Shown here one piece after another: positions 22,897-37,849 of a stretch of 64,000 bases of DNA; within the stretch, counting starts at the first letter, position 1; each line of letters starts with the position of its first letter. This DNA is from Escherichia phage vB_Ec-M-J, in the sequence record OQ718158.1, one strand, 5' to 3'. A program made the position numbers and the translations under genes. The notes beneath the pieces are model-generated. The model was not told the DNA's origin. It searched no databases and was given only the letters and a program-made list of their open reading frames with translations.

Positions 22897-24045
22897 TTAT
22901 ATTGATGGCATATCCAACACATATGAGTTGCTAGTAATTGATGAATATGTAGAATTTAAACCTGTACTATAAACATAATCACCTGCCCATAAGAATGTTC
23001 TATCCAATGTTGTATGTATTTCAATATCATCATATGATGATAATGATATTTGTGCTAGTGTATATGTAGTAGCATCAATGTTTGAACCAATACCCAAAGT
23101 ACCATTGTATTGTGATTGGGAGTTTTGACCAGTTGCATATATACCAGATTTGGTTATTAAATGCTGATTGTACATTGACGTACCTTTAAACAATTTAATT
23201 AAATTAGAGTTAGGTGTAGTTATTGGTGCAGGAGCAAGTATTGTTGTTGTAGTGCCACCATCACCTAATTGTCCATATCGTTGGTAACCACCAGCGTATA
23301 CCTGTTTAACTCCAGCCGTAGTTTCAATAATAAAGAATGAACCATAGCCAGTAGTATTAAAGTCTATAATTTTATTTGTACTCAAACCAACATTATATCT
23401 AGTAAATGTTGTTGCATTTGCTGAACCACCAGCATTCCCACCTACCATTTGCCCACTATAATAAAATGCTCCAGTACTGTCAGTATAAGCCATACAGTTC
23501 TCACTACCATAGATTTTTACTGGTGTACTGGGGAAACTAGAGGTTATATTCACACATGTATTATATTTTGCAGTAGTTCCAGTAATTTCACCATTGTTGT
23601 TTTGCCCAATTACCCAAACTGTGTCATCCGAACGTATAGCCATTGAGCTATAAAACGAGGATACAAATTGTTTAATAAAGGAACCAGGGAGAGAAGTAAG
23701 CATACTATTGATTTGTGCACTCACATTGGTCCATGTATTCACAACTGAATTGACACCTGCGGCTGCACCTGAACCAGAACTCCACCATGATTCATCATTC
23801 TTTTTAATCAATGTACCATTAGCAGAGCAATAAACATCAGCAACTGAACTATTAACTAATATCCATGCCCTCGCTGCTGTTGTATTACCAGTACCTAGCT
23901 GTCCTGCTGCATTACTACCCTTAGCATATAAATCTCCATTCTGCGTTAAAAGCATAGCATGTTGGTATCCAGTTGACAATTTCTTTATTTTTGGTAATGC
24001 TGGTGCTTCATTTCCATAATCAAACATTCTAACAAAAGGTAACAT
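22897..24045 (-). CDS. beta-propeller protein, RCC1-like, leader MLPFVRMFDYGN
   Basis: 382 aa; motifs AGQLGTGN, YGQLGDGG. Confidence 0.8.
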   Translation of the reverse strand: MLPFVRMFDYGNEAPALPKIKKLSTGYQHAMLLTQNGDLYAKGSNAAGQLGTGNTTAARAWILVNSSVADVYCSANGTLIKKNDESWWSSGSGAAAGVNSVVNTWTNVSAQINSMLTSLPGSFIKQFVSSFYSSMAIRSDDTVWVIGQNNNGEITGTTAKYNTCVNITSSFPSTPVKIYGSENCMAYTDSTGAFYYSGQMVGGNAGGSANATTFTRYNVGLSTNKIIDFNTTGYGSFFIIETTAGVKQVYAGGYQRYGQLGDGGTTTTILAPAPITTPNSNLIKLFKGTSMYNQHLITKSGIYATGQNSQSQYNGTLGIGSNIDATTYTLAQISLSSYDDIEIHTTLDRTFLWAGDYVYSTGLNSTYSSITSNSYVLDMPSI

Positions 24046-24116: not shown

Positions 24117-25295
24117 TTAAAATTGTGGTAGTTGGTATTCAGTTAATGTCCATGTACCTGTAACTGTTCCATTCGGGGACATCCCTGTGTAGTATAATTT
24201 GCCACCAGCGTATACAAATAATGCATTGTCATTAGCAGCAACCATCGAAGTTTCTGGATCAAATACTACAGAAATTGGTAATTGTGATTGAACAAATACT
24301 GACGCATTGGTAGTTGAATTGTTACCAAGTTGTCCATAGTTGTTATACCCAGTACTGAAAATACGGCTACCATTTCTATATAATATACCCCTAGTACTTT
24401 GTGAATGTAGATCTATAAATTCAAAATCGGAAACATTAGTTAATTGCAAATAAGTACTTTGTGGAGTTAGTGCTGTCTTATTCGTATTGGTTGTAACTCC
24501 ATTACCTAATTGACCGTAAAATTGTGATCCTAAACCATATAGCGGATAAGTACCATCTGAATAAAGAACTATACCCAACATCTTATTATGTGAAAGAATA
24601 TCTATTGGATATTTCCCTGTACCAAAGTCGTATCTAGTCCAAGACGTTAATGTAGCCGACGCTGCCCCAGTTAACAAAGTACCAGTGGTAGTTGTGCCAC
24701 ATCGCCACGCTGAATTATCATTCTTAATTATCCAAGTTGGACTATTAAAAAATGAACTAACCTTTTTAACATTAATATTGACCTGGGTTAATTCTGTAAG
24801 CATTGATGAACTTGAACCCAACTCATATGTGGAGTTATTACCTATTGCATAAAGAACCCCACTATTTGTTAGTACAAACAAATTACGAACATTAGGATAT
24901 ATCTCTTTAATATCATCAATATTAATACCCGAAAAATAAGAAGTACATTCCACAAAGGTAGTACTTTGTACTTCACTCGATGCACCTGTCCAGGTGTTCC
25001 ATCCTGCATAATAAAATTTATTATCATTAGTCTGTACTAAGCTATATGAAGAGTTCCTAGTGCACCAGAAATTTTTCACATTTTGCATTAATCGAACCCA
25101 TGATGTCTGTGTTGTAGTATTACCCAGTCCGAAAATACCAGCATTGTTTCCACCGATACCCCACAAATCACCGTTACTATACTGTAGCATCAATGTATTG
25201 TTGGTGAACGCTGATGGTGCTTGCATTTTAATTACATTAGCTGATGGTGCAGGTTTAATATTCCCGTACTTAACCATTCTTGCAAAAGGTAACAT
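24117..25295 (-). CDS. beta-propeller protein, RCC1-like, leader MLPFARMVKYGN
   Basis: 392 aa; motifs YGQLGNGV, YGQLGNNS. Confidence 0.8.
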   Translation of the reverse strand: MLPFARMVKYGNIKPAPSANVIKMQAPSAFTNNTLMLQYSNGDLWGIGGNNAGIFGLGNTTTQTSWVRLMQNVKNFWCTRNSSYSLVQTNDNKFYYAGWNTWTGASSEVQSTTFVECTSYFSGINIDDIKEIYPNVRNLFVLTNSGVLYAIGNNSTYELGSSSSMLTELTQVNINVKKVSSFFNSPTWIIKNDNSAWRCGTTTTGTLLTGAASATLTSWTRYDFGTGKYPIDILSHNKMLGIVLYSDGTYPLYGLGSQFYGQLGNGVTTNTNKTALTPQSTYLQLTNVSDFEFIDLHSQSTRGILYRNGSRIFSTGYNNYGQLGNNSTTNASVFVQSQLPISVVFDPETSMVAANDNALFVYAGGKLYYTGMSPNGTVTGTWTLTEYQLPQF

Positions 25296-25370: not shown

Positions 25371-26561
25371 TTATAGTTGTCTTGGAGTATCAAGTACATA
25401 TCTATTTGTACTAGGACCACCATCATCATAAGTTCCGGTTGAATATATATTTTTCATATCAGCAGTTAGGAAAGTACGTAACGACCCTCGATATATTTTT
25501 ATTTTATCATACATAGAATATGTTATTTCTGACGGCAATGGACATGCAGTAAATTTACCAATGGTAACATTAGAACCAACACCCAATGAACCAGCATAAC
25601 TACTCGCATTTAAACCTGTTGCATATACACCAGAACTCGTAACTAGTATACTAGATTGTGCTGGGTATCCAGTATGAATTGAATACAAAGTACCGGGTGG
25701 TAAGGTTGTACTATTATTTCCTAATACTGCTCGTGCTGTACTAGACGTAGTGTTATTACCCCATGCCCCATTATTGGCGTTCCCACCCACTAGGAACTGA
25801 CGTGCTCCTGTACTTGGATTCTCCACTAAAGCACTGACTGCACCAATTGTACATACAACATATTGTAATGTTTTTGTATATGTTGTACTTGGCTGATATA
25901 AAGTATATTGATTGTATGGAGTCCATGTATCAGTAGTACTTATACCTGATGTACTACCACCAATATATAAATTATTTTGTGTATCATAAAACATTACACA
26001 GCTATTTGTTGACTGTATTCGTGCAATATCAACATTAGGCGTGACAGCTTTTACAAATGATCCATCTGTTATTTGCTGAGTACTACCAGTACCATCAGCG
26101 AATTGTCTAGCCCCACTCCAACCAGTACTCCATATTGTATTATTATCCATTAAGAAAGTAAACCAAGTAGTACCTGCATACATCTGTTTAATTGAAGTAC
26201 CTGAACTTTGTGTGTACAAATTTTCAATATATTGGTTATAACTTAAAAATGATGTAGTACTAGTTTCTAAACCAATATGACTACCATATCCACAATAAAA
26301 ATAATTTAAGTCCTTATCTTGAACTAACAAAGTTCCTTGTGTCATCCAGCAATCTTTGACATTTTCTCTAATTAATGTCCACGACCTTACTGCATTATTA
26401 TTTCCGCGACCGAACTTCCCATAACTATTATTTCCTCGTGCGTATAGTTGACCGTCAGTATAAAGTACAACCACATCAGTATCAGTTGGTATTATTTTCT
26501 TAATTAGAAGAGGTTCAGGTGTGATATTCCCATAATCAAACAATCTAACAAAAGGTAACAT
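25371..26561 (-). CDS. beta-propeller protein, RCC1-like, leader MLPFVRLFDYGN
   Basis: 396 aa; conserved leader and cassette. Confidence 0.8.
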   Translation of the reverse strand: MLPFVRLFDYGNITPEPLLIKKIIPTDTDVVVLYTDGQLYARGNNSYGKFGRGNNNAVRSWTLIRENVKDCWMTQGTLLVQDKDLNYFYCGYGSHIGLETSTTSFLSYNQYIENLYTQSSGTSIKQMYAGTTWFTFLMDNNTIWSTGWSGARQFADGTGSTQQITDGSFVKAVTPNVDIARIQSTNSCVMFYDTQNNLYIGGSTSGISTTDTWTPYNQYTLYQPSTTYTKTLQYVVCTIGAVSALVENPSTGARQFLVGGNANNGAWGNNTTSSTARAVLGNNSTTLPPGTLYSIHTGYPAQSSILVTSSGVYATGLNASSYAGSLGVGSNVTIGKFTACPLPSEITYSMYDKIKIYRGSLRTFLTADMKNIYSTGTYDDGGPSTNRYVLDTPRQL

Positions 26562-26631: not shown

Positions 26632-27774
26632 TCAATAAGCTTCCCACGGTAAGGGTGTCTTCCTAAATCCATACCTGGTTGTGGTCGCACCATCACCAGC
26701 AATGTATCGACCGATACCACATTGGTATAACTCTGTACTACTACATATAGCACCACCAATAGTACCACTACTCCACAGAATTATATTAGAATATGTTATT
26801 GGTAAATCACTACATTTAGTATATACACCAACGGTAGCAGTCCCACTAATACCACCAAACATACTTCGGTTAGCACCAGTATAATATATACCATCTGGAC
26901 TCATAAATGCAGAGGTGTAAGTTGTACTACAATCCACTGGACTTCTTATAGTATTAAGATCGCCTGGGTATGTCCTGACACCAAAGGTGTATACATTACC
27001 ATCAGTTGTAATACCATTACCTAACTGCCCACTGTTTTGTCCACCACATGTAAGCAACAATGCAGAACCAGAAACAATTGCAGTAGCATTATACGAAGTA
27101 CCCATCGCAATAGAAGCACCAGACAATAGTTTTGGAGTAACAATAGCTGTTGTATTACCCTGGCCTAATTCACCATTGATATTTCGTCCCCATGCGTATA
27201 TAGAAGTTGTATCCAATCGACATAGTACTGAACCATAACTAAACGTATATCGCATGTCAATTACCGCATTAGGCAAATTAACCTTAGTTGCAACACTAAT
27301 AACACCACCAGTAACACCACTGTTTGCGTTCATGTTACGACCATATGCATATAAAGAACCATCTGAAGTTTTAATATGCATCATACCATCTGTACAATAC
27401 AATGCATCTATACTATCCACTGCAACCGGACCCATACTGGTAGTTATATCGGTCCACCCAAGCGTGGTAGTACTGGAAATTAAGTTATTTCCGGCGTATA
27501 GTATTCTATTATTATTAGTAACTACAACTGTATATCTGGCAGTAACACCAATTAATCGAACATCAGTATATATCTTAGACCACGCACCTAATGAATTGGT
27601 GTTTGCATCCAAAAAGCCCAACTGCCCATCTGTATTGTATCCAATACCCCATACATCACCTGCACTGTCCAATAACACTTCATGTGAAAATCCAATCTTA
27701 AAATCTTTTATTGTAGGAACTACCGGAACTGGTGCAATATTCCCGTACTTAACCATTCTAGCAAAAGGTAACAT
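26632..27774 (-). CDS. beta-propeller protein, RCC1-like, leader MLPFARMVKYGN
   Basis: 380 aa; motifs DGQLGF, SGQLGNG, NGELGQGN. Confidence 0.8.
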   Translation of the reverse strand: MLPFARMVKYGNIAPVPVVPTIKDFKIGFSHEVLLDSAGDVWGIGYNTDGQLGFLDANTNSLGAWSKIYTDVRLIGVTARYTVVVTNNNRILYAGNNLISSTTTLGWTDITTSMGPVAVDSIDALYCTDGMMHIKTSDGSLYAYGRNMNANSGVTGGVISVATKVNLPNAVIDMRYTFSYGSVLCRLDTTSIYAWGRNINGELGQGNTTAIVTPKLLSGASIAMGTSYNATAIVSGSALLLTCGGQNSGQLGNGITTDGNVYTFGVRTYPGDLNTIRSPVDCSTTYTSAFMSPDGIYYTGANRSMFGGISGTATVGVYTKCSDLPITYSNIILWSSGTIGGAICSSTELYQCGIGRYIAGDGATTTRYGFRKTPLPWEAY

Positions 27775-27850: not shown

Positions 27851-28999
27851 TTAACGAGGTATAACTATTTTTTTGAATAATCCAGTATTTCCTGCATTTT
27901 CTTCTTCATATGGAATTGTACCCATACCAGCAGTTCTGCCACCATTCCCTGAACCATACAGTTCTCCATTCTTAATCATGAATGTTATCATATAACCATG
28001 TGTCATTTTATCATATGGAACTGGTTCAGTTATATTATTACATGCTCGCCATGTACTAATAACACTAGAGTTCGTTATACCATCACCTGATGCGTTTCCT
28101 CGACCAGCGAAATACCATATCCCACCTGCTCTAACGTGTGCTTCATAATTAGAACCACCTATGTAATCAATCGCAGTACTAGGAATACTAGAAGCTGGTA
28201 TCTTTGTGATTGTTCTAAGACTGTTAATAGTGCCATTAGTACCATCACCCAACTGTCCATATATTTGTGAACCGAATACATATAGCCCATCACTCTTTAA
28301 TACGTAATTAGCACTATATGCATTTTCTGAATTTACCTGTAATACTCCAGTAGTAACAGTAGTCAATGTGGTGGTAGTTGTACCAGTCGAACCAATACTA
28401 GATTTATTCCCACTGTACTTTAATATTCCATTATTGTATAATACAAATGAAGCATTATCAGCGGTTACACCAATATCTTTAACATCAACTTCTGGTGTCA
28501 ATGTCAGTACTGATACTCTTTGGTCAACAGCCCCAGTAAAAACTTCACCGTTGTTATTGTAACCCATCTTATATAATTTATTATCTATTGTTAATAATAA
28601 TGTAACGCCGTTTCCTATAACTATTTTACTATATGTGTCATTCACATCATCAAAAATACCAAGTATTTCTGTCCATACACGATAAGTAGTATTAACACCA
28701 CGATAGATTTGAGCACCAGTACTCCACCATGTGCCATCATTTTTACGTACTAATATTCCATGTGTATTACCAGTAGTCCAAAATTCCTTTACATCAGTTA
28801 AACATAAAACCCACTCTTCAACTATAGTAGGAGAACTACTACCAGTACCTAATTGATAGTAAAAATTATGCCCTCTGCCATATAATCTTCCGTCTTCTAA
28901 TAAAATAAACACATTATTCTGTAAAACTTTTACCATCTTTATACCAACTGGCACAGGTGCTTCATTCCCATAATCAAACATTCTAACAAAAGGTAACAT
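27851..28999 (-). CDS. beta-propeller protein, RCC1-like, leader MLPFVRMFDYGN
   Basis: 382 aa; motifs YYQLGTGS, YGQLGDGT. Confidence 0.8.
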   Translation of the reverse strand: MLPFVRMFDYGNEAPVPVGIKMVKVLQNNVFILLEDGRLYGRGHNFYYQLGTGSSSPTIVEEWVLCLTDVKEFWTTGNTHGILVRKNDGTWWSTGAQIYRGVNTTYRVWTEILGIFDDVNDTYSKIVIGNGVTLLLTIDNKLYKMGYNNNGEVFTGAVDQRVSVLTLTPEVDVKDIGVTADNASFVLYNNGILKYSGNKSSIGSTGTTTTTLTTVTTGVLQVNSENAYSANYVLKSDGLYVFGSQIYGQLGDGTNGTINSLRTITKIPASSIPSTAIDYIGGSNYEAHVRAGGIWYFAGRGNASGDGITNSSVISTWRACNNITEPVPYDKMTHGYMITFMIKNGELYGSGNGGRTAGMGTIPYEEENAGNTGLFKKIVIPR

Positions 29000-29070: not shown

Positions 29071-30180
29071 TTATTTTGGTAAATCAATTTTAGTAAAGAC
29101 TGCAACATCCTCGCTTGCCCCTGGGATGGCGTAATAAGAACCAGTACTATATACATCTCCGTCTTTTGTTAATATTGAAGTTAAACCATCACTAAAAAGA
29201 ACATCACTAATCTCACTAACTGAAACAGGTAATTGTAAATTAGTAGCACTATATATTGCACCAGTTTGAGAATTGTTTAATCCCAAACCACGGTTCGCCC
29301 CAACACCCTTCTGATATGTACTAGTAATTATAATTTGTGTAGCAGTATTTAATGCAGGTGAATTCGTCATAAACAACGGAGAACTATTAGGCAAAGAACT
29401 TACAGGAACTGCACGAAATGTAGTTGTATCTGAACTAAGAAAGTTTGGCGTTTGACCACATACGAAATATGATGTACCATTATAGTAATTAAATGCATTA
29501 CCACCTATAGCTGCATCTATTACTCCAGTACTACGTAATCCCCACGTGTTAATTTGTGTTCGGTTCCCCGTGCCATGCTGACCCCTGTCATTCCACCCAG
29601 AACTATATAACTTATTATCTAATGTAATATACATACTGTCATTTGAATTCGTCATTACTTTACGCACATTAGTAGCACATTGAGTTAATGTGTAAATTGA
29701 TGATGAACCAATACCTAAAGCACCACGATATCCATTAGCCCCTGCACCATAGAGTACTGAACTAGTGCTAAGTACAAATATTAAACCATACGAACATACT
29801 ATATCAGCAATTTCATTTACCGATAGTACACTCGTAAACCACGCAGTCCTATCAACTAATACAGTACTGTAAGAAGTCCCAGTAGAAGACGAAAACCAAT
29901 AAGTCTCACCAGCAGTCCATATAGTATTGTCACTCTTAATAACAACAACTGTACGATCACCAGCAAAAAAATTAGTAACTTCTGTACTCACTAATCTCCA
30001 TGAAGATACAGTGTTGGTATTACCATTTCCAGATTCACCACCTTGATTTCTACCTATGTAATATAAATCATGTGAATCAGTCAATAAGAATTGACCCTGT
30101 GTAGACGCACCAACTTTTATTATATTTTTAGGACCAGGTGTGATATTCCCATAATCAAACATTCTTACAAAAGGTAACAT
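29071..30180 (-). CDS. beta-propeller protein, RCC1-like, leader MLPFVRMFDYGN
   Basis: 369 aa; motif RGQHGTGN; only 10 nt from upstream paralog (co-transcribed). Confidence 0.8.
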   Translation of the reverse strand: MLPFVRMFDYGNITPGPKNIIKVGASTQGQFLLTDSHDLYYIGRNQGGESGNGNTNTVSSWRLVSTEVTNFFAGDRTVVVIKSDNTIWTAGETYWFSSSTGTSYSTVLVDRTAWFTSVLSVNEIADIVCSYGLIFVLSTSSVLYGAGANGYRGALGIGSSSIYTLTQCATNVRKVMTNSNDSMYITLDNKLYSSGWNDRGQHGTGNRTQINTWGLRSTGVIDAAIGGNAFNYYNGTSYFVCGQTPNFLSSDTTTFRAVPVSSLPNSSPLFMTNSPALNTATQIIITSTYQKGVGANRGLGLNNSQTGAIYSATNLQLPVSVSEISDVLFSDGLTSILTKDGDVYSTGSYYAIPGASEDVAVFTKIDLPK

Positions 30181-30190
30181 ATTTCTCTCC

Positions 30191-31321
30191 TTAATTTAAT
30201 AATGCCCCTGGCAAATCCACTTTGACGAATTGTGCATATGCTGAGGAATTTTGATCAAAGTTTGGTCCCAATCCATAAAATGAGCTAATGCCGTCTTCAT
30301 TTGTGTATATGATATAAACGTTCTTTACATCATTTCCGCATATAAATCGAATGTCTTTCGTTTGTGTTCCCGCTGGAACATTACGAAGGTTCACAACGCC
30401 ATTACTTGCATTGTTATCAGCCGACGCAATTGGTAATTGATTTTGACCATATTGACCACGCATATTTTTTGCATCTAAACCAAACACAGTATCTGATACC
30501 GCACCAACTTTCAAAAATGAACCAAAACTATTATTGAATGACTTTGGAAATGTACCACTATAAACACTTCTCCCATCTGATAATACCGCTGAACTGAATT
30601 TCCCGCTATTCGATATGGCAAATTCATTGTAAGGAAGTGTACCCATTTTGGTATATACAGAATATGAATTAGTGGAAGTATTATCAATAATCTTATTACC
30701 ATTATATCCAATACCATACTGGTATCCGTCTGCATCTTGAACTATACACAAAGGACCACTTGGGGTTTGTGTCAACGAAACAACACGTTCAACTTGTATA
30801 TCACCAAATGTATTTCTTCGCCATGTTCTATCTATTATAGTACTAGTATTACCCAAAGATAATGCCACACTATATAATAGATTGTTTTCAGTAAAAATGG
30901 CAACATAATATGCGTGGTTAATAACTTGCTTCATCCCAGCATCAATAACTTCCTGTGGAATATGATCAGTAACATCCAACCAATCAAGGTTAGATGATGC
31001 AATATCTGGAGTACTGAATTTGTCAAATCTAGTTGAGCCACAAACTAGCACTCTATCATCATTTGTCAAAGCCACTGTGCTAGTCTGCATATTAGAACTG
31101 AATGATTTAACATTACTAATGTTAGACTTGTACCAACCCTTATCAGCAGCACCCACCGTGAATCCGGTTCCCATTGATCCACTTGTACTTGTACCATAAG
31201 CCCACATCTCACCACTATATGTTAGTGCCATACAGTGGCTTCCATTTGCTTGGAAATCCTTTATACCAGTGGGAGCAACCACTGTATTCCCATAATCAAA
31301 CATTCTAACAAAAGGTAACAT
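30191..31321 (-). CDS. beta-propeller-like protein, leader MLPFVRMFDYGN
   Basis: 376 aa; same leader; variant upstream cassette. Confidence 0.75.
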   Translation of the reverse strand: MLPFVRMFDYGNTVVAPTGIKDFQANGSHCMALTYSGEMWAYGTSTSGSMGTGFTVGAADKGWYKSNISNVKSFSSNMQTSTVALTNDDRVLVCGSTRFDKFSTPDIASSNLDWLDVTDHIPQEVIDAGMKQVINHAYYVAIFTENNLLYSVALSLGNTSTIIDRTWRRNTFGDIQVERVVSLTQTPSGPLCIVQDADGYQYGIGYNGNKIIDNTSTNSYSVYTKMGTLPYNEFAISNSGKFSSAVLSDGRSVYSGTFPKSFNNSFGSFLKVGAVSDTVFGLDAKNMRGQYGQNQLPIASADNNASNGVVNLRNVPAGTQTKDIRFICGNDVKNVYIIYTNEDGISSFYGLGPNFDQNSSAYAQFVKVDLPGALLN

Positions 31322-31398: not shown

Positions 31399-32580
31399 TT
31401 ATGGTAAAATGATAGATTGTAACGAACTCATACCCAATGCTGGAACACTAGCCTGTGGTGCTGGAGAATTCAATTTTGGTGATGAAACCGCATATGACAT
31501 TCCTGAACCCAAATCTGGATCAAAAACTACAGCACAATAATTCCCACTATATATAAGTCCATTCTTGTATCCTTGTGCACTTTGAATGCATTTCGTGAAC
31601 GTACCAATATCTGTAGTGGCATTTATTAAGTTCCTCCCACGATAACCGCAGGTGTATATGAAATTATCATCGCCTATGTACATACTAGAATCCCCAGAAG
31701 AACTACATAGATACGACATATAAGCACGCATGTTTTTAGGAGCAACTGACAATGTACCTGCATAGAATTTATTATTCGAACCCGTAATATCACCATCACC
31801 CAATGCACCAAAACTTCCCCAGCCAGTACCATAATATCTCTTATCACTCAAGAATATAATACAGTTGTTATTACACATCTTGACTTGATATATCAATGAA
31901 GGATCAACCCCAGGGAATGATTCAGTGTATGTTAGAACAGCCAGATCAGTACTAGCATTACATTGATGATATGTATTAGTACCAGCGGACAAGATTGTTC
32001 CATTAGCTAACAGAATTCTCGCAGTACCAGTACCAGCAGTACAAGCAACTGCACTTCCTGCACTTCCGGTGTATATTTGTCTGAAAGTAAAGAAACCAAC
32101 AGTTTTACTTCCCTGCCCACTCCAACCAGTATTATCAACTCCACACGCCCATACTGAACCATCTTGCATGATCATCATTACACCAAAGCGTTCTATTGAA
32201 ATATAAACAATCTTCGTTGTATCAACTGCACTAAATCTAGAAGTTATATCAGTCCATACCTTAACACTTACCGCCGTCGCACTGGAAGTAGGATCTTCAC
32301 CAGCTATCATTATCCTCCCATTGTTAGTAAGATACATTGTCTGACTATAACCAGTACTACAAAACTTAACACTATCAGTCTCTGGAACTTTTAACCACTC
32401 GTTGTAACGTGTTACGTTAGTGTTATTACCTAACTGATAATAGTTATTCATCCCAGATACATATAACACACCATCCTTTATTAAACTATAAGTCGCACTA
32501 TAGTCACTACAGGTATAACGTGTACCCACAGGTCGCTCAACGACGTTCCCATAATCAAACATTCTAACAAAAGGTAACAT
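31399..32580 (-). CDS. beta-propeller protein, RCC1-like, leader MLPFVRMFDYGN
   Basis: 393 aa; motif YYQLGNNT. Confidence 0.8.
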   Translation of the reverse strand: MLPFVRMFDYGNVVERPVGTRYTCSDYSATYSLIKDGVLYVSGMNNYYQLGNNTNVTRYNEWLKVPETDSVKFCSTGYSQTMYLTNNGRIMIAGEDPTSSATAVSVKVWTDITSRFSAVDTTKIVYISIERFGVMMIMQDGSVWACGVDNTGWSGQGSKTVGFFTFRQIYTGSAGSAVACTAGTGTARILLANGTILSAGTNTYHQCNASTDLAVLTYTESFPGVDPSLIYQVKMCNNNCIIFLSDKRYYGTGWGSFGALGDGDITGSNNKFYAGTLSVAPKNMRAYMSYLCSSSGDSSMYIGDDNFIYTCGYRGRNLINATTDIGTFTKCIQSAQGYKNGLIYSGNYCAVVFDPDLGSGMSYAVSSPKLNSPAPQASVPALGMSSLQSIILP

Positions 32581-32653: not shown

Positions 32654-33775
32654 TTAAAAGGGCAACGGTAACTCAGTAAAAGTACTTACGTCCGGTAAAC
32701 CATACATTGAATTAGCATCACCACAGTAATACCACTTCGTAGAATCATGTACCACCGATAAACGCTGTGCACATAACACTTCCTGTATGTCATTAAACAC
32801 CATCGGGACTAACTCATATGTATCCGCAAATGAAGATACACCACCACTCGCATGAAAAGTATTCGTCCCAGCATAAAATAACTGATTAGTGTTCTTACCC
32901 ACAGCAAATGTCATCAATATCCCATCATTCTCCCATAAAGAAGAAAACTTATCAACACTACCAGAAAGCTCTGTGTAAGTACTCGTAATGGCACTCGCAG
33001 CCGCCGCATTACCCATCTGTTTATTCAAGTTCTGTCCAGCAATAAAATATCTCGTGCGTGCACTAGAATCAGTATATAATAACCCAGTGTTCGTAGTCAT
33101 CATTCCAATGTCCTTAATCGTCATACCAGTCTGTGAATAACTTAGATACGAAGTTAAACTACCATTATTACCCAACGAACCGTTATCACTCATGCCACAA
33201 CGATGTAATATACCACTTGTATCAACGTAGATAGTACTAACTAAACTCGTATACAACTCTTGTACATTATTCGCAATAAACACAGCAGTCGCCTTATTAC
33301 TAACCCCACCAAATGATAGGTTATTATCAAATCCCTTAGCGTATAATTGATTATTAGTAGTCAATAATCCAATCGTGAAATAAGACATTTTCATATCCCT
33401 TACTGTACTCAAATCTACTGCCCCAAATTGGTGCGTAACATCTGTCCATGTGAAAATCTGTGCACTACCAACACCACCCGTTTCAAACCATTTGTCACCA
33501 CAGTACAATATGCGATTACCCTTAGTAAAGATAACTGTTACCAATCCACTACCACACGCAAACTTTACATCACTTCTAACCTTCGTCCAATCAAGTACAT
33601 AGGTAGTGGTGTTATTACCTATACCTAACTTGCCATAACGGTTATAACCACGCACCCACAAATCACCACTCTTAGTAATTAATAGTAATGCGTCTCCTGT
33701 ACTTATTATTCGAAATCCCGAACTAGGATCAGGTACTTCATTTCCATAATCAAACATTCTAACAAAAGGTAACAT
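32654..33775 (-). CDS. beta-propeller-like protein, leader MLPFVRMFDYGN
   Basis: 373 aa; conserved leader and cassette. Confidence 0.75.
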   Translation of the reverse strand: MLPFVRMFDYGNEVPDPSSGFRIISTGDALLLITKSGDLWVRGYNRYGKLGIGNNTTTYVLDWTKVRSDVKFACGSGLVTVIFTKGNRILYCGDKWFETGGVGSAQIFTWTDVTHQFGAVDLSTVRDMKMSYFTIGLLTTNNQLYAKGFDNNLSFGGVSNKATAVFIANNVQELYTSLVSTIYVDTSGILHRCGMSDNGSLGNNGSLTSYLSYSQTGMTIKDIGMMTTNTGLLYTDSSARTRYFIAGQNLNKQMGNAAAASAITSTYTELSGSVDKFSSLWENDGILMTFAVGKNTNQLFYAGTNTFHASGGVSSFADTYELVPMVFNDIQEVLCAQRLSVVHDSTKWYYCGDANSMYGLPDVSTFTELPLPF

Positions 33776-33848: not shown

Positions 33849-34976
33849 TCAAAAAGGTAAATCAATTTGCTTAGTAATAATAGTATCTAACGGTATTGAA
33901 CACAATGAGAAATTCTTTCCACCCGTATTTTCAGGATTATATCCATTCATCCATACATTATTACCTTCGTAAAATGTATTCCAGTATAAAGACCCACTAT
34001 ATCGTGTATTCGAATTGAACGATGTAAAATTGAATTCTTGAAATGCTGTAAAATATGGAAGGGAACTTGAACTACTTCCCGTAAATGGGGTATGCCCAGT
34101 TGCTATTAGTTTGTTTGTATCTGCATTAATTAAAAATACAACACTAGTCGAATAGTCCAACGAATCAGGATGATATATATTACTCATATCACCTATAGTA
34201 AAACCAACATCAAAAACTTTACTATGTGCACCACTACCAGCAAAAGTAGTTCCAGTTGCATATATTTTATTATCAGATGTTATCATTACAAAACCAACAC
34301 CAGAAACAAAACTGCATTTTATATCATAAGATATATCATCAAACAACGGAACAAATGTGGTTGCATCACCCGATGTTGCTTTAACTTGAAAGCTGTTATT
34401 TGAACCTGAACCATATACAGTTCCATCGTTTTTAATCTTAAACAATGTATCGCCAAGGTAACCGCCAAATATATTATCCACATTAGTGTCAAGTACAGTC
34501 CACGCTGAAACATAATTTTTATGTCCTAAACCTAATGTACCACTTCGATTCCATCCTCTTCCATAAAGTGTTCCGTCTTTCATTAATATAAATGCTGTAT
34601 AACCACATAACATTTTTTTAATTTGGGTAACATCTATACCAGTGAAATACACAGCCCAGTCAGTATATCCTTGTTGGAAAGTATTAGAATTCGTGAATGC
34701 ATATGTTGAACCTGAACCATATATTTTATCACCTTTAATAACAACGGAAAACGATCCTAACCATAAGTCATCAACTTCAGTTGTGATTTGTTGAACTGCT
34801 CCTAACGATACAAACTGTGTACTTAAACCCGCATTATAGTTTGAATCTTCACCGTGTGCATATACAGTGCCATCTTGCATTAGAAACATTTCAAGAGTGT
34901 AACTAACAACACTTTTCTTTATATTATTAACTTCGATTATATTCCCATAATCAAACATTCTAACAAAAGGTAACAT
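33849..34976 (-). CDS. beta-propeller protein, RCC1-like, leader MLPFVRMFDYGN
   Basis: 375 aa; motifs YGRGWNRSGTLGLGH, YGSGSNNS. Confidence 0.8.
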   Translation of the reverse strand: MLPFVRMFDYGNIIEVNNIKKSVVSYTLEMFLMQDGTVYAHGEDSNYNAGLSTQFVSLGAVQQITTEVDDLWLGSFSVVIKGDKIYGSGSTYAFTNSNTFQQGYTDWAVYFTGIDVTQIKKMLCGYTAFILMKDGTLYGRGWNRSGTLGLGHKNYVSAWTVLDTNVDNIFGGYLGDTLFKIKNDGTVYGSGSNNSFQVKATSGDATTFVPLFDDISYDIKCSFVSGVGFVMITSDNKIYATGTTFAGSGAHSKVFDVGFTIGDMSNIYHPDSLDYSTSVVFLINADTNKLIATGHTPFTGSSSSSLPYFTAFQEFNFTSFNSNTRYSGSLYWNTFYEGNNVWMNGYNPENTGGKNFSLCSIPLDTIITKQIDLPF

Positions 34977-35045
34977 AATTCCCTCCTTTATTCATTATAC
35001 TATATTTAATCAAAAAAAGCCAGTATCAAGTACTGGCATATTAAT

Positions 35046-36194
35046 TTACTGCAAAAATGACATATCGACTTCTGTATAATTAAGAACGTTCTGTCCAGAA
35101 ATACCACCCATTACTACTATTGCAAGGCCACAATAATATAATTTTCCAGTATCAGTAAGTATAAGTGAACCAGATGGGGTGCGTACCAAATTACAAGAGG
35201 TATTAAACGAAGTATATGAAGGAGTATAGGAGTACTGATTAATATTATTACCAACACCTAATTGACCAGACGCGTTGCTTCCAGATGCATAAAGTACTTC
35301 ATCACCTTTAACTATATGTGATGCCATGTTACCAACACAAGTATATAAACTATAAACACCTGCACTCAATAATGTGGGGGTTTTATATTGTATATCAGTA
35401 GAAGAGGAAGTACCACCTGTACCAAATTCGTTCCCATATTGTGCACCGAACTGTTTACCACAAGCGTACAAATTATTATCCGATTTGATAAAAAATGTAC
35501 TCTGATAACTTACATTAAAATCTATAACATCCGAAGAAATCATCGTCACCCCAGTAATAGAAGTTTGATTACCCGTGCCCAACTGGTAGTAATAGTTAAA
35601 ACCACAACCCCATAAAGTATTATCTTCTCGCAAATAAATGTTACCAACTGCCTTTTTAACCGAAGTTATAGTATCTACTCTTTTGAATGTGTTAAAAGAA
35701 TTAATGTTTGTGCCATCACCAAATGATGATATGTTCGATATATTGTTAGCTCCACAACAATACAATGTACCATCGTTTGTTATCAAATTCACCTTCATAT
35801 CATAAAAACTACTCATGTATTTTATATCAGAAACATTAATACCACTTGATGTTATCCACGTAGTACAGTCCGTCCACAAAGTTTTTCTATCAGTTACACC
35901 AGTGAATGCCTTCGTGTTACCAGTGATAAAAACTTTTCCAGTACCTTTCTCTTCATACAATTGACAATCACTACTGTTATCTTCCAATAGAACTCGTTTA
36001 ACATTCTCCGCACAAAGAATAAATTTACTCGATGCTACACCTGTACCAGTACCCCAATTCGTCGCAGAAGATGCATACAACTTATCAGTATAAGTATCAT
36101 GAAGATACATAGAATCACTGGAATATATTTTAAAACGCCCAGAGTTGGTAGGTGCTTCATTCCCATAATCAAACATTCTTACAAAAGGTAACAT
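35046..36194 (-). CDS. beta-propeller protein, RCC1-like, leader MLPFVRMFDYGN
   Basis: 382 aa; motifs YYQLGTGN, SGQLGVGN. Confidence 0.8.
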   Translation of the reverse strand: MLPFVRMFDYGNEAPTNSGRFKIYSSDSMYLHDTYTDKLYASSATNWGTGTGVASSKFILCAENVKRVLLEDNSSDCQLYEEKGTGKVFITGNTKAFTGVTDRKTLWTDCTTWITSSGINVSDIKYMSSFYDMKVNLITNDGTLYCCGANNISNISSFGDGTNINSFNTFKRVDTITSVKKAVGNIYLREDNTLWGCGFNYYYQLGTGNQTSITGVTMISSDVIDFNVSYQSTFFIKSDNNLYACGKQFGAQYGNEFGTGGTSSSTDIQYKTPTLLSAGVYSLYTCVGNMASHIVKGDEVLYASGSNASGQLGVGNNINQYSYTPSYTSFNTSCNLVRTPSGSLILTDTGKLYYCGLAIVVMGGISGQNVLNYTEVDMSFLQ

Positions 36195-36206
36195 ATTTCC
36201 TCCAAA

Positions 36207-37112
36207 TTATTTAAAAACATACTGCGTATTAACACGTGTCCCGTTGTCGTAACCAAGTACGTAAAATATTTCAGCACTATTATTAGAGCCAAATAATGCA
36301 CCAGTACTATTACTCAACGTTGTATTGATAGCTAATGGTATCCATTTGTTTTGCTCGGCATCATATTTTAATAAATTTAATGCACCATAAGATACTGCAT
36401 ATATACCTTTGTCATATCTATTGTAAATTATCTTACTAGGGTTAGCTCCACCAACTGCTGCCATTCTTGACCAAACCGCACTCTCTATGTGATATTTTTG
36501 TGCAGGAGTAGATCCTTGTCCTGTAAAATATATGTAAGTACCATCAGTGCACATATCACCACCACCATTGTTTGTTGTATTCCCAGTAGTACCTAACGAT
36601 GTCCATGTATTAGTACTCGGCGTATAACTATATAATGCAGTATTAGACGGTGAACCCCACAAATATATCTTATCCCCTGTAGTAATCATCTTACTATATA
36701 CTGCCTGGTTAGGTTTGCCAACACTTGTATTATTCAGTGTCCATGTATCAGAGCTTATGTCATATACATAAAAATTATTATTAGCAACATTCGCTGCACC
36801 TAAACCACCGAACAAATATATTTTTCCTTGATAGGCACACAATGCACTTCCATAGGTGGATACTGGTGGTGATGATAATTGTACCCATATTCTAGAATTT
36901 AAATTAAAACTCCATAACTGATTATCCTGGTTCGAAGTATTCATTATACCACCAAATATATAAGCAGTATTTCTTGATGCATCATACGTATAACCAAAGT
37001 TATTTCGTGCTGAAGGTACTGGTGATGTGGTAAATTGAGTTCGTATACCACCATTTGGGGCTGGTAATGGAGCTTCATTCCCATAATCAAACATTCTAAC
37101 AAAAGGTAACAT
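36207..37112 (-). CDS. Kelch-type beta-propeller protein with the same leader MLPFVRMFDYGN
   Basis: track ORF trimmed to MLPF start; Kelch-like blades YIFGG, IYLFGG, IYLWG, YIYFTG. Confidence 0.75.
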   Translation of the reverse strand: MLPFVRMFDYGNEAPLPAPNGGIRTQFTTSPVPSARNNFGYTYDASRNTAYIFGGIMNTSNQDNQLWSFNLNSRIWVQLSSPPVSTYGSALCAYQGKIYLFGGLGAANVANNNFYVYDISSDTWTLNNTSVGKPNQAVYSKMITTGDKIYLWGSPSNTALYSYTPSTNTWTSLGTTGNTTNNGGGDMCTDGTYIYFTGQGSTPAQKYHIESAVWSRMAAVGGANPSKIIYNRYDKGIYAVSYGALNLLKYDAEQNKWIPLAINTTLSNSTGALFGSNNSAEIFYVLGYDNGTRVNTQYVFK

Positions 37113-37159
37113 ATTTCCTCCTTTATTCATTATATCATATTTACCCCATAAACAAAACC

Positions 37160-37188
37160 CTTGACATCCTTTCAGTACTGGTGTACTA
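37160..37188 (+). promoter_or_regulatory. sigma70-type promoter for the plus-strand small-gene array
   Basis: TTGACA-N17-TACTAT in divergent region between Kelch gene start and array. Confidence 0.55.
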
Positions 37189-37214
37189 TAGAAGGAATAC
37201 AAGGAGAACTACAC

Positions 37215-37442
37215 ATGACAGCTACACTTAAGTACTACATTAATACTCTAAATGAACTAGAGTACGGTAAGTTTCTCGCGGATAGTTCGTGGCTAATTGA
37301 GCTAAAAACACATAACAGTACTGGATGTAACCTTATGCTGAACAATGCACTTGATACCCTTGTAGTGAGTATTTTACACAGCACCATCTGCGGGGATAGC
37401 AATAAACAATTATCAAAAATCTTAGTACTGGTAGCTCTATGA
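37215..37442 (+). CDS. small protein, EYY-family-like (first gene of plus-strand array)
   Basis: track ORF trimmed to ATG after AAGGAG; N-terminal KYYINTL; behind TTGACA-N17-TACTAT promoter. Confidence 0.5.
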   Translation: MTATLKYYINTLNELEYGKFLADSSWLIELKTHNSTGCNLMLNNALDTLVVSILHSTICGDSNKQLSKILVLVAL

Positions 37443-37651
37443 ACACTATGAACATTGAACAGTACTACATTGATGCACTGCCAACAAAAGGTCTACGAGA
37501 AAGCCTACTGTATACACAAAATAATTATATAAACCTCAAACATTGTCCTAAACTATTGAACTCGTACAGGAATAATAAAATAAGAAATGCTGTACAAGGG
37601 GTAGAAAGTATGCAATACTATTACATCCTAACCCTTTTAATCGAGCACTAA
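37439..37651 (+). CDS. small protein, EYY-family paralog
   Basis: about 70 aa; N-terminal QYYIDAL, C-terminal YYYILTLLIEH. Confidence 0.55.
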   Translation: MNTMNIEQYYIDALPTKGLRESLLYTQNNYINLKHCPKLLNSYRNNKIRNAVQGVESMQYYYILTLLIEH

Positions 37652-37652
37652 T

Positions 37653-37838: not shown

Positions 37839-37849
37839 AAGAGTACTAT

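What the first reader, a model, noticed from the sequence alone, without database searches (positions are those of the whole stretch)
36207..37112. The same 12-aa leader is grafted onto a different propeller type (Kelch-like)
The last array gene has the identical leader MLPFVRMFDYGNEAP, but its body shows Kelch-like blades (AYIFGG, KIYLFGG, KIYLWGSP, YIYFTGQG) rather than RCC1 motifs. A shared leader on two propeller types argues that it is a portable module, not an intrinsic structural part of one fold.
Basis: partly seen in the sequence, partly recalled or inferred. Interest (0 to 1): 0.7.

Follow-up and report, generated by a model that had tools for sequence, protein, structure and literature searches.

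The report
Shared address tag on phage propellers
A giant E. coli phage puts the same 12-residue N-terminal tag on a Kelch propeller, on 14 RCC1 propellers and, in related phages, on lectin-like proteins. The tag is therefore a portable label, most likely one that attaches interchangeable binding domains to the virus particle.

Summary
Gene 36207-37112 (- strand, 301 aa) starts with MLPFVRMFDYGNEAP, identical to three neighbouring genes. Its body is a six-bladed Kelch propeller, shown by Pfam, an AlphaFold model and Foldseek. The 14 neighbours are seven-bladed RCC1-like propellers. The window holds 15 tagged genes, not 16.

The window is an Asteriusvirus jumbo phage, 99% identical to phage BF17 for this gene. 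In both models the tag and a Pro-rich linker lie outside the fold.

Related jumbo phages (CBB, XbC2, GAP32, 121Q) put the motif M-L-P-F-x-[RIQ]-[MLI]-x-x-Y-G-N on Kelch, RCC1, RCC1+Kelch, concanavalin-like lectin and unassigned bodies. One XbC2 array has 11 consecutive tagged genes. Orthologous bodies carry different tag variants in different genomes. Homologous bodies in PhiEaH1 and rV5-like phages carry a different tag.

Published mass spectrometry finds many of these proteins in virions. The best reading is a virion-docking tag for interchangeable surface binding modules. The main rival is a T4-like capsid-targeting signal for packaged proteins. The docking partner and the location on the particle are unknown.

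The parts
36207..37112 (-). Leader-Kelch gene: 301 aa plus stop. It is the first gene of the tagged array in the direction of transcription.
   Evidence: ORF and translation. 99% identical to a BF17 CDS of the same length. Pfam Kelch families. PHROG phrog_12615, unknown function.
37077..37112 (-). Leader coding segment, residues 1-12: MLPFVRMFDYGN.
   Evidence: 93% nt identity to the leaders of the 14 RCC1 genes, against 36% in the next 36 nt. 15 pattern matches in the window against 0 expected. pLDDT <50 and no secondary structure.
37047..37076 (-). Pro-rich linker, residues 13-22: EAPLPAPNGG.
   Evidence: pLDDT <50 and no secondary structure. Across 73 leader proteins, Pro occupies position 15 in 35, position 17 in 28 and position 18 in 11.
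36210..37046 (-). Six-bladed Kelch beta-propeller body, residues 23-301.
   Evidence: AlphaFold2 mean pLDDT 86.4 with 24 strands. Foldseek top hits are the Kelch domains of KLHDC10, NS1-BP, KLHL17 and LZTR1. Pfam PF24681 at 9.7e-27.
37113..37142 (-). Conserved 5' cassette: promoter-like AAATATGATATAATGAATA followed by the AAGGAGG ribosome-binding site.
   Evidence: Near-identical sequence (aaatatagtataatgaataaaggagg) precedes most array genes. Not a canonical sigma-70 promoter by the consensus scan. Function as a promoter is inferred, not shown.
35046..36194 (-). Leader-RCC1 paralog (382 aa), 12 nt downstream of the Kelch gene, with an identical 15-aa leader.
   Evidence: Pfam RCC1, RCC1_2 and WD40_RLD. 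Translation.
33849..34976 (-). Leader-RCC1 paralog (375 aa).
   Evidence: Pfam. Alignment A2.
32654..33775 (-). Leader-RCC1 paralog (373 aa).
   Evidence: Alignment A2.
31399..32580 (-). Leader-RCC1 paralog (393 aa).
   Evidence: Alignment A2.
30191..31321 (-). Leader-RCC1 paralog (376 aa).
   Evidence: Pfam. Alignment A2.
29071..30180 (-). Leader-RCC1 paralog (369 aa). Its 121Q ortholog carries a different leader variant.
   Evidence: Body 89% identical to the 121Q ortholog, leader only 9/12 identical.
27851..28999 (-). Leader-RCC1 paralog (382 aa).
   Evidence: Alignment A2.
26632..27774 (-). Leader-RCC1 paralog (380 aa), leader variant MLPFARMVKYGN.
25371..26561 (-). Leader-RCC1 paralog (396 aa).
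   Evidence: Body 87% identical to the 121Q ortholog, leader 8/12 identical.
24117..25295 (-). Leader-RCC1 paralog (392 aa), leader variant MLPFARMVKYGN.
22897..24045 (-). Leader-RCC1 paralog (382 aa). This is the paralog used for the RCC1 structure model.
   Evidence: AlphaFold2 pLDDT 84.1. Foldseek top hits are UVR8, RPGR and RCC1, TM 0.77-0.81 for UVR8. Pfam.
21723..22883 (-). Leader-RCC1 paralog (386 aa from ATG 22883). The mechanical ORF starts 13 codons further upstream.
20519..21652 (-). Leader-RCC1 paralog (377 aa), leader variant MLPFARMVKYGN.
18633..19757 (-). Leader-RCC1 paralog (374 aa), the last in the transcription direction, leader MLPFVLLFDYGN.
   Evidence: Pfam..
35019..35037 (-). 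Representative intergenic hairpin terminator, GCCAGTACTTGATACTGGC followed by a T-run. Similar hairpins follow most array genes.
   Evidence: 21 terminator-like sites in 18000-37600 against 7.7 expected. Twelve sites on the array (minus) strand have a CCAGTA or TCAGTA stem, eight of them the core GCCAGTA..TACTGGC; eleven lie between array genes and one just after the last gene.

Best explanation
The 12-residue N-terminus is a portable protein-level address tag with consensus M-L-P-F-x-[R/I/Q]-[M/L/I]-x-x-Y-G-N. A short Pro-rich linker follows it.

The tag does not belong to any one fold. It docks whatever domain follows it onto a common acceptor site in the virion of Rak2-like jumbo phages.

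The bodies are interchangeable, lectin-like binding modules: a Kelch propeller here, RCC1 propellers next door, and concanavalin-like domains in relatives. They are most probably displayed on the outside of the particle (tail, baseplate periphery or 'hairs') as accessory adhesins or host-range factors. The array would then work as a plug-and-play library of binding domains that share one attachment device.

**Shown:**
- The tag sits on several unrelated folds.
- It is predicted to lie outside the fold in both propeller types.
- It is under protein-level constraint.
- Tag and body are exchanged independently.
- Many of the tagged proteins are in purified virions.

**Inferred:**
- The tag is what causes virion incorporation.
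- The acceptor is a single shared site.
- The proteins are external and bind host surface structures.
For: **1. The same tag sits on different folds.**
- In the window it sits on Kelch and RCC1 bodies.
- In phage CBB, ten tagged genes cover three Kelch bodies, Laminin_G_3/concanavalin-like bodies and Pfam-unassigned phrog_6011 bodies.
- In Xanthomonas phage XbC2, 11 consecutive tagged genes include an RCC1+Kelch fusion, Kelch, RCC1, a gene annotated LamG and unassigned bodies.
- I collected 73 distinct tagged proteins. MLPF is invariant, Y10 occurs in 68, G11 in 67 and N12 in 70.

**2. The tag has a sharp module boundary.**
- Nucleotide identity among the 15 genes is 0.89 in codons 1-12 and 0.38 in the next 12.
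- The RCC1 bodies are only 21-31% identical to each other.

**3. Selection acts on the protein.** In CBB, XbC2 and a metagenomic relative, synonymous codons vary (CCA/CCT/CCG, TAT/TAC, GGA/GGG/GGT) while the residues are kept.

**4. Tag and body are exchanged independently.**
- Orthologous bodies that are 87-89% identical between this phage and 121Q carry leaders only 8-9/12 identical. Each leader matches the majority variant of its own genome.
- Conversely, the CBB_247 body has a homolog in phage PhiEaH1 (E 6.6e-32) whose alignment starts right after both leaders. There it carries a different leader, M-x-E-A-L-L-x-G-K-K, shared by four tandem PhiEaH1 genes and seen in rV5-like phage 4MG.

**5. 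The tag is predicted to lie outside the fold in both propeller models**.

**6. The proteins are in virions.**
- CBB_247, 536, 537, 548, 549, 551, 552 and 553 are recorded as structural proteins in the CBB record or by the authors' mass spectrometry (PMC5259590).
- phAPEC6 gp003, 005, 006, 007, 009 and 010 were detected in virions. Four of them are labelled 'DNA condensation protein' in the table, that is, RCC1-like (PMC7247149).

**7. Several hints point to an external, adhesin role.**
- The bodies are carbohydrate- or protein-binding folds.
- Charge density is low, pI is 4.8-8.6 and S+T+N+G makes up 36-45% of residues.
- The CBB_247-type body forms the C-terminus of a 623-aa 'tail fiber protein' next to the sheath genes in phage HRDY3.
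- An RCC1+Big_2 'tail protein' lies in the tail-fibre cluster of rV5-like phage FENT2.
- The phiKZ Kelch protein gp298 is a low-abundance virion protein needed for adsorption to particular hosts (PMC12676376).

**8. There are mechanistic precedents for N-terminal docking.**
- The 29-aa 'conserved peptide' of Klebsiella phage KP32 RBP2 is necessary and sufficient to dock foreign domains onto the virion (PMC13352976).
- The phiKZ gp131-135 paralogs share an N-terminal attachment region, and gp131 carries a seven-blade propeller (PMC13250141).

**9. The tag is clade-specific.**
- All six IMG/VR contigs with hits are 348-378 kb long.
- 596 Gb of cellular genomes gave 2 hits. That is about what I estimated by hand from the pattern's information content, with no shuffle control. 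One hit is a 16-codon ORF; the other heads a 570-codon reading frame in Paenibacillus whose true start I judged to lie downstream.
Against: - No experiment or structure shows the tag bound to anything. No acceptor was identified.
- No solved structure contains a homolog in a virion context.
- Location on the outside of the particle rests only on analogy. Mass spectrometry cannot tell inside from outside, and the phAPEC6 authors proposed an internal role.
- Peptide counts in phAPEC6 are low, 1-4 unique peptides per protein.
- AlphaFold's low confidence for the leader does not exclude it packing on the body or on a partner subunit. RCC1 residues 1-8 have pLDDT of 50 or a little above.
- Within this genome even synonymous sites of the leader are nearly fixed: TTA in 15/15 genes, CCT in 15/15 and AGA in 14/15. 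Gene conversion or an mRNA-level constraint therefore contributes to the conservation seen in the window.
- CBB_550, the closest CBB relative of this Kelch gene, was not among the proteins detected by mass spectrometry.
Confidence: 0.5

Rival explanations
1. The leader is a capsid-targeting signal, analogous to the T4 capsid targeting sequence. It would direct the proteins into the prohead, possibly onto the inner body. They would be packaged with the DNA and ejected into the next host, for example as anti-defence or takeover effectors. The array would then be a hyperplastic internal-protein locus.
For: - A short N-terminal leader shared by otherwise unrelated proteins in a tandem, fast-evolving locus is the architecture of the T4 internal-protein locus (own knowledge of T4 IPI, IPII, IPIII and Alt).
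- These phages have T4-type head genes, including a Peptidase_S77 prohead protease and scaffold.
- phAPEC6 has an inner body, and its authors suggested the RCC1-like proteins for it.
- The proteins are virion-associated at low peptide counts.
Against: - 13 of the 15 window proteins have no [L/I]-x-E (T4 gp21-type) cleavage motif anywhere in their first 45 residues. One has IIE directly after the leader, at residues 13-15. Position 13 is E in only 12 of 73 proteins.
- The leader has no sequence similarity to the T4 signal.
- The bodies are rigid 30-40 kDa propellers and lectin folds with near-neutral pI, unlike small basic DNA-associated internal proteins.
- Homologous bodies occur in tail-fibre proteins and tail-fibre gene clusters of other phages.
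- A Kelch virion protein in phiKZ acts in adsorption.
Confidence: 0.2
2. The leader serves another protein-level role that is not virion addressing. Possibilities are a recognition tag for a phage chaperone or assembly factor, a degron or regulatory handle, or a strand that links subunits head-to-tail or into oligomers such as the 'hairs'.
For: - The tag is invariant on diverse bodies and under protein-level constraint, which fits any common binding partner.
- Kelch and RCC1 propellers are peptide-binding platforms; Foldseek hits include degron- and peptide-bound Kelch domains.
- phAPEC6 and CBB, both with large arrays, have unexplained hair-like appendages.
Against: - Concanavalin-like and unassigned bodies carry the same tag, so self-recognition by propellers cannot be general.
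- Most tagged CBB proteins end up in the virion, which a degron would not predict.
- There is no evidence for oligomers.
Confidence: 0.15
3. The conservation is mainly at the nucleic-acid level. The promoter-RBS-first-36-nt cassette would be a translation-initiation or expression unit and a recombination substrate, homogenised by gene conversion. The encoded peptide would have no function of its own.
For: - Within this genome the leader codons are almost invariant even at synonymous sites (TTA 15/15, CCT 15/15, AGA 14/15).
- The cassette continues upstream into a conserved RBS and promoter-like sequence, and hairpin terminators flank the genes.
- Leaders follow the genome and not the body, as gene conversion predicts.
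Against: - Across genera the codons differ while the residues are kept.
- Conservation stops exactly at codon 12, and the invariant residues fall in two blocks, MLPF and YGN. That pattern fits a peptide ligand.
- Genes lacking their own promoter/terminator cassette keep the peptide. Examples are 36194, 30180 and 22883, which follow the preceding gene directly.
Confidence: 0.07
4. The leader is an intrinsic structural element of the propellers, a 'velcro' closing strand or folding nucleus. Its presence on Kelch would simply reflect a common ancestry of the two propeller types.
For: N-terminal strands do close many propellers (textbook knowledge). The leader has a hydrophobic pattern that could form a strand.
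Against: - It is not predicted as a strand in either model. The first strand starts after a Pro-rich linker.
- The same leader is on non-propeller concanavalin-like and other bodies.
- Homologous bodies exist with a different leader or none.
- The Kelch and RCC1 profiles are unrelated.
Confidence: 0.03

Closest known systems
N-terminal 'conserved peptide' of the secondary receptor-binding proteins of Klebsiella phages KP32/K11/KP34, which docks onto the T4gp10-like branching domain of RBP1 (Latka et al.; PMC13352976)
   Same: A short N-terminal peptide conserved among otherwise unrelated virion proteins. It is separable from the functional domain, and in KP32 it is necessary and sufficient to load foreign domains onto the particle. 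It allows modular exchange of binding or enzymatic bodies.
   Different: - The KP32 peptide is about 29 aa, against 12 aa here, with no sequence similarity noted.
- The KP32 bodies are trimeric beta-helix depolymerases, not monomer-sized propellers or lectins.
- KP32 has one secondary RBP per phage, against 10-16 tagged genes here.
- The partner is known in KP32 and unknown here. Nothing here is experimentally tested.
T4 capsid targeting sequence of internal proteins IPI/IPII/IPIII and the hyperplastic internal-protein locus of T4-like phages (own knowledge)
   Same: A roughly 10-aa N-terminal leader shared by unrelated proteins encoded in tandem in a rapidly diversifying locus, with the products found in virions. 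The phage has T4-type head-assembly genes.
   Different: - No sequence similarity.
- No conserved [L/I]-x-E protease site after the leader.
- The bodies are large lectin-like folds, not small basic proteins.
- Homologous bodies are tail-associated in other phages.
phiKZ gp131-gp135 paralogous baseplate/fibre family (PMC13250141) and phiKZ Kelch protein gp298 (PMC12676376)
   Same: - Both are jumbo-phage cases.
- In gp131-135, paralogs share an N-terminal attachment region while their C-terminal domains differ. gp131 has a seven-bladed propeller at the baseplate periphery.
- gp298 is a low-abundance Kelch virion protein, encoded away from the tail genes, and conditionally required for adsorption.
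   Different: - The shared phiKZ N-terminal region is a folded domain with a helix bundle, not a 12-aa peptide.
- gp298 is not known to carry a shared leader.
- No sequence relationship was found: phiKZ was absent from the tblastn hits at E<=1e-5.
RCC1-like 'DNA condensation proteins' of phAPEC6/121Q/GAP32 and 'kelch-like proteins' of CBB, as annotated in the literature (PMC7247149, PMC5259590)
   Same: These are the same gene families. The window's genes are orthologs or paralogs of them, and virion association was shown by mass spectrometry.
   Different: - The papers treat RCC1 and Kelch genes as separate families.
- One paper proposes DNA condensation in the inner body on the strength of the eukaryotic RCC1 name.
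- Keyword searches of the two papers (N-terminal, conserved, paralog), and of the CBB supplement for 'MLPF', found no mention of the shared leader.
- The CBB paralog table groups only 536-537 and 549-553.
- The near-neutral, low-charge composition found here argues against DNA binding.

Membership tests
Kelch-repeat beta-propeller (Pfam clan Beta_propeller; PF01344, PF13415, PF13418, PF13964, PF24681) | Repeats of about 45-50 aa with the GG doublet and conserved Y/W, scoring above Pfam gathering thresholds | tested here: met
   PF24681 scores 94.1 bits (cut-off 50). Kelch_1 49.9 (20.1). Kelch_3 63.8 (22). Kelch_6 60.0 (25.3). Kelch_4 59.8 (21.6). Nearly invariant GG and W columns in alignment A1.
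Kelch-repeat beta-propeller | Six four-stranded blades forming a closed propeller | tested here: met
   AlphaFold2 model with pLDDT 86.4 and 24 strands. Foldseek probability 1.00 and TM up to 0.75-0.79 to the Kelch domains of NS1-BP, KLHL and LZTR1.
RCC1-like domain (PF00415, PF13540, PF25390), tested for the body of this gene | RCC1 repeats, seven-bladed RCC1/UVR8-type propeller | tested here: not met
   No RCC1 family hit at E<=1. hhalign of the Kelch profile against the RCC1-paralog profile gives probability 1.4%. The 14 neighbours do meet this feature.
T4-type capsid targeting sequence | Short N-terminal leader shared by otherwise unrelated proteins of one tandem locus | tested here: met
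T4-type capsid targeting sequence | Leader ends at a prohead-protease site ([L/I]-x-E) and is removed in the mature virion | tested here: not met
   The motif is absent from the first 45 residues of 13 of 15 window proteins; one protein has IIE at residues 13-15. Position 13 is E in only 12 of 73. Actual processing could not be tested: no peptide-level mass spectrometry data are held.
T4-type capsid targeting sequence | Protein located inside the capsid and ejected with the DNA | not testable with these tools
   Only whole-virion mass spectrometry is published.
N-terminal docking peptide / anchor module of phage receptor-binding proteins | Conserved N-terminal segment on proteins whose remaining domains are unrelated, separable from the functional domain | tested here: met
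   Sharp boundary at codon 12. Outside the fold in two models. Same leader on at least five body families. Same body with another leader.
N-terminal docking peptide / anchor module of phage receptor-binding proteins | Binds a defined acceptor (branching domain, baseplate or fibre) and is required for virion incorporation | not testable with these tools
   No complex prediction was available. No solved structure contains a homolog.
N-terminal docking peptide / anchor module of phage receptor-binding proteins | Body binds a host surface receptor | tested here: inconclusive
   Lectin-like folds, homologs in tail-fibre proteins and clusters of other phages, and the phiKZ gp298 precedent. No direct evidence for these proteins.

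The most novel reading that the evidence does not exclude
Rak2-like jumbo phages use one universal 12-residue address tag to load a whole genomic library of unrelated binding domains onto a shared set of docking sites on the particle. This phage has 15 such genes; relatives have 4-16.

Each virion would then carry a stochastic mixture of adhesins, a combinatorial, bet-hedging host-recognition surface.

Other large myophages (PhiEaH1, rV5-like phages) would use the same principle with a different tag. Short lineage-specific tags plus freely exchanged bodies would then be a general, previously unrecognised design rule, and a ready-made handle for displaying foreign proteins on jumbo phages.
Probability: 0.3. 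Interest if true: 0.8.

Novelty: new variant of a known kind. Interest (0 to 1): 0.62.

Why it matters
- **It reassigns a prominent gene family.** These genes are currently annotated 'regulator of chromosome condensation / DNA condensation protein'. They would become a family of modular virion proteins, defined by a shared N-terminal tag.
- **It makes a question testable.** How do 350-kb phages with unexplained 'hairs' and broad host ranges attach accessory binding domains? The tag gives a 12-residue peptide to fuse to a reporter, mutate or use as bait.
- **It could be an engineering handle.** If the tag proves sufficient for incorporation, as the KP32 conserved peptide is, it would be a compact way to display proteins on jumbo phages or retarget them.
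- **The design may be general.** A second tag on homologous bodies in PhiEaH1 and rV5-like phages suggests so.

Tried and rejected
1. **Profile search for the leader in the 5.8-billion-protein collection.** A 42-column profile collected only 8 candidates and returned two short fragments.
2. **Leader in cellular genomes.** One scan of 596 Gb gave 2 hits. That is about the number I estimated by hand from the pattern's information content, with no shuffle control. One is a 16-codon ORF. The other heads a 570-codon reading frame in Paenibacillus whose real start I judged to lie downstream. I treat both as chance.
3. **Resemblance to a tail-fibre N-terminus.** The rV5-like tail-fibre N-terminus reads ...EIWAYGNIVLP. 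I rejected the resemblance because the solved homolog 9cuy_c has AADVNLP at that position, so YGN is not conserved in that family.
4. **Solved virion structures containing these bodies.** None found. Only eukaryotic RCC1-type and unrelated chains turned up.
5. **Sigma-70 promoters in the intergenic cassette.** They are not enriched: 84 sites against 106 expected. The cassette's promoter role stays an inference. It does not match the ATAAATA late motif reported for CBB.
6. **Peptide-level mass spectrometry data,** to see whether the leader is retained. The supplements held for the CBB paper do not contain them.
7. **Erwinia phage pEa_SNUABM_25,** which matched CBB_247 'from residue 2'. There the body is the C-terminus of a longer protein, so it does not carry the leader.
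8. **DNA-condensation function implied by the RCC1 name.** I judged this unlikely from composition. I could not test it directly.
Full report
**What the window is.** The 301-aa product of 36207..37112 (- strand) is 99% identical to a hypothetical protein of Escherichia phage BF17, an Asteriusvirus with a 383-kb genome. It is 74-76% identical to 'kelch-like' proteins of phages A4, Turkey5 and EJP2. It is 36% identical over its full length to CBB_550 of Pectobacterium phage CBB, a Mimasvirus. A neighbouring gene is 99.2% identical to phage fEgEco12. The window is therefore part of a Rak2-like jumbo myophage. It has 33-42% G+C, with a GC-skew switch across the minus-strand array.

**Checking the observation.**
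- Fifteen minus-strand genes between 18633 and 37112 begin with MLPF[V/A][R/L][M/L][F/V][D/K]YGN.
- A degenerate 36-nt pattern for this leader matches 15 times, against 0.00 in shuffles.
- The gene in question carries MLPFVRMFDYGNEAP, identical over 15 residues to three RCC1-like neighbours.
- The count of 16 genes is not. The sixteenth MLPF is a 23-codon ORF lying inside another array gene.
- The Kelch gene is first, not last, in the direction of transcription.

**The body is Kelch and the neighbours are RCC1.**
- Pfam assigns the body to Kelch families well above their thresholds, with no RCC1 hit. The neighbours hit RCC1, RCC1_2 and the RCC1-like domain.
- The AlphaFold2 model built on a 40-sequence alignment has mean pLDDT 86.4 and 24 strands, which is six blades. 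Its best PDB matches are Kelch domains of KLHDC10, NS1-BP, KLHL17 and LZTR1.
- The model of the paralog at 22897..24045, built on the 14 paralogs, has pLDDT 84.1. It matches UVR8, RPGR and RCC1, which are seven-blade propellers.
- Profile-profile comparison of the two alignments finds nothing, at probability 1.4%.

**The leader-body junction.**
- In the Kelch model, residues 1-22 (leader MLPFVRMFDYGN plus linker EAPLPAPNGG) have pLDDT below 50 and no secondary structure. The first strand is residues 24-27.
- In the RCC1 model, residues 1-19 have no secondary structure and pLDDT of about 50-70. The first strand is residues 20-25.
- At the DNA level the 15 genes are 89% identical over codons 1-12 and 38% over the next 12. 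For the Kelch gene against the RCC1 genes the figures are 93% and 36%.
- The RCC1 bodies are only 21-31% identical to each other, yet M1, L2, P3, F4, Y10, G11 and N12 are invariant.
- Across 73 distinct leader proteins from this and related phages, the leader is followed by a Pro-rich stretch. Pro occupies position 15 in 35 proteins and position 17 in 28.

**The leader is portable, as related phages show.**
- A degenerate DNA pattern found the leader in six IMG/VR contigs, all 348-378 kb long.
- In CBB the leader MLPF[S/P/A/T][R/I]..[E/Q/K]Y[G/A]N heads three Kelch proteins, Laminin_G_3 (concanavalin-like) proteins and members of PHROG 6011 that Pfam does not assign. One tagged gene, CBB_247, lies elsewhere in the genome.
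- In Xanthomonas phage XbC2, eleven consecutive genes all start MLPFP... Their bodies include a 688-aa RCC1+Kelch fusion, further Kelch proteins, RCC1 proteins, a gene annotated LamG and unassigned folds.
- Codon choice in the leader varies in these phages while the residues stay, so selection acts on the peptide.
- Within the present genome even synonymous sites are nearly fixed.
- Orthologous bodies that are 87-89% identical between this phage and 121Q carry leaders only 8-9/12 identical. Each matches its genome's majority variant, VRMFD here and ARMVK in 121Q. Leaders therefore evolve in concert within a genome and are exchanged at the junction.
- The reciprocal case exists too. The CBB_247 body has a homolog in Erwinia phage PhiEaH1 (28.6% identity, E 6.6e-32) whose alignment starts right after both leaders. 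The PhiEaH1 protein carries a different leader, M-x-E-A-L-L-x-G-K-K, shared by four tandem PhiEaH1 genes with unrelated bodies.
- The same second leader heads a PHROG-6011 'virion structural protein' and another protein in rV5-like phage 4MG.
- Cellular genomes do not carry the MLPF leader above the number of hits I estimated by hand for chance.

**What the proteins do.**
- Published mass spectrometry places many of them in virions. In CBB these are CBB_247, 536, 537, 548, 549, 551, 552 and 553.
- In phAPEC6, gp003, 005, 006, 007, 009 and 010 were detected with 1-4 unique peptides each. Four of them are labelled 'DNA condensation protein' in the table.
- Keyword searches of the two papers, and of the CBB supplement for 'MLPF', found no mention of the common leader. 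The CBB paralog table links only 536-537 and 549-553. The phAPEC6 paper suggests a DNA-condensing inner-body role from the RCC1 name.
- Composition argues against DNA binding. pI is 4.8-8.6, charge density is low and S+T+N+G makes up 36-45% of residues.
- Three observations favour an external, adhesin-like role:
  1. The CBB_247-type body forms the C-terminus of a 623-aa tail-fibre protein next to the sheath genes in phage HRDY3.
  2. An RCC1+Big_2 protein (PHROG 'tail protein') lies in the tail-fibre cluster of rV5-like phage FENT2.
  3. The phiKZ Kelch protein gp298, a low-abundance virion protein encoded away from the tail genes, is required for adsorption to particular hosts.
- N-terminal docking of exchangeable modules has direct precedents: the KP32 'conserved peptide' and the shared N-terminal regions of phiKZ gp131-135, where gp131 carries a seven-blade propeller.

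**Best explanation and rivals.**
- I conclude, at confidence about 0.5, that the leader is a virion-addressing or docking tag for interchangeable, probably surface-displayed binding modules.
- The main rival, at about 0.2, is a T4-like capsid-targeting signal for packaged and ejected proteins. The architecture fits. However, 13 of the 15 proteins have no gp21-type [L/I]-x-E site in their first 45 residues, and the body types point to the outside of the particle.
- A purely nucleic-acid explanation (expression cassette plus gene conversion) accounts for the within-genome synonymous identity. It does not account for residue conservation across genera with varying codons.
- An intrinsic structural role is contradicted by the non-propeller bodies, by the models, and by homologous bodies that carry another leader.

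**Gene organisation.**
- Most array genes are separate units. Each has a hairpin terminator (commonest core GCCAGTACTTGAGTACTGGC plus a T-run) followed by AAATATAGTATAATGAATAAAGGAGG and the ATG.
- The Kelch gene has the promoter-like and RBS part upstream. It abuts the next gene with a 12-nt gap.

**Novelty and limits.**
A search for the string 'MLPF' together with 'phage' returned only two unrelated papers.
- The principle of N-terminal addressing modules on phage proteins is known. This is a new, very short, clade-wide variant, attached to an unusually wide range of folds and present in up to 16 copies per genome.
- The acceptor, the location on the particle and the ligands of the bodies remain unknown. 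All functional statements are inferences.

Noticed in passing
window 18600-37150, intergenic regions (e.g. 35019-35037, 33820-33843, 29046-29064, 24091-24110): Most array genes are flanked by a conserved cassette. It consists of a hairpin terminator (commonest core GCCAGTACTTGAGTACTGGC plus a T-run), then AAATATAGTATAATGAATAAAGGAGG, then the ATG. Terminator-like sites number 21 against 7.7 expected. The cassette could drive unequal crossing-over and gene conversion in the array.
   Followed up: partly
window 37439-42201, + strand: A second tandem array of about 20-25 small paralogous ORFs (59-81 aa), divergent from the leader array. Their starts resemble M..KE(F/Y)Y(I/T).(K/H)L and their ends resemble LL.LI(Y/F)(R/K)Y or YREVLKLI. 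Function unknown.
   Followed up: no
L020 (Erwinia phage PhiEaH1) about 4170-7213; L022 (Escherichia phage 4MG) 6965-7615 and 11948-12601; L016 (FENT2) 6001-7695: A second, different N-terminal leader, M-x-E-[A/M]-[L/I/M]-L-x-G-(G)-K-(K/S), heads tandem genes with unrelated bodies in PhiEaH1. In rV5-like phages it heads proteins whose bodies are homologous to MLPF-tagged bodies. The FENT2 RCC1+Big_2 tail protein has ..LFLLLEGGGS near its annotated GTG start and may belong to this class.
   Followed up: partly
L015 (Xanthomonas phage XbC2) 359-2425: One 688-aa protein combines the leader, an RCC1-like domain (residues about 30-276) and a Kelch domain (residues about 365-650). The two propeller types also occur fused in a single chain.
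   Followed up: partly
C-termini of the 14 RCC1 paralogs, e.g. window 29071-29100, 32654-32680, 33849-33875: Most RCC1 paralogs end in a conserved motif, F-x-[K/E]-[I/V/L]-[D/P]-L-P-x (e.g. VFTKIDLPK, FTELPLPF, ITKQIDLPF). The Kelch gene, which ends QYVFK, lacks it. In a closed propeller this tail should lie next to the N-terminal linker, so it may contribute to docking in the RCC1 class.
   Followed up: no
window 19835-20485, + strand: A 216-aa gene on the opposite strand interrupts the array between the last two leader genes. BF17 has the same arrangement (L001 37373-38023). Function unknown.
   Followed up: no
window leaders: 21617-21652, 25260-25295, 27739-27774 versus the other twelve: Two leader variants coexist in this genome: VR[M/L]FD (12 genes, counting VLLFD) and ARMVK (3 genes). 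Positions 5, 8 and 9 co-vary. 121Q uses almost only the ARMVK type. This could mean two acceptor variants, or drift with gene conversion.
   Followed up: partly
window 27254-27880, + strand: A 208-aa ORF lies antisense inside the array genes 26632-27774 and 27851-28999. It is probably a spurious ORF on the opposite strand of the array genes.
   Followed up: no
window 15319-16089, + strand: A 256-aa protein with a P-loop (GAPGVGKTY). It resembles CBB_538, the gene that also neighbours CBB's leader genes 536/537 (similarity judged by eye from the two translations). A conserved neighbour of this kind is a candidate assembly factor for the tagged proteins. Not examined.
   Followed up: no
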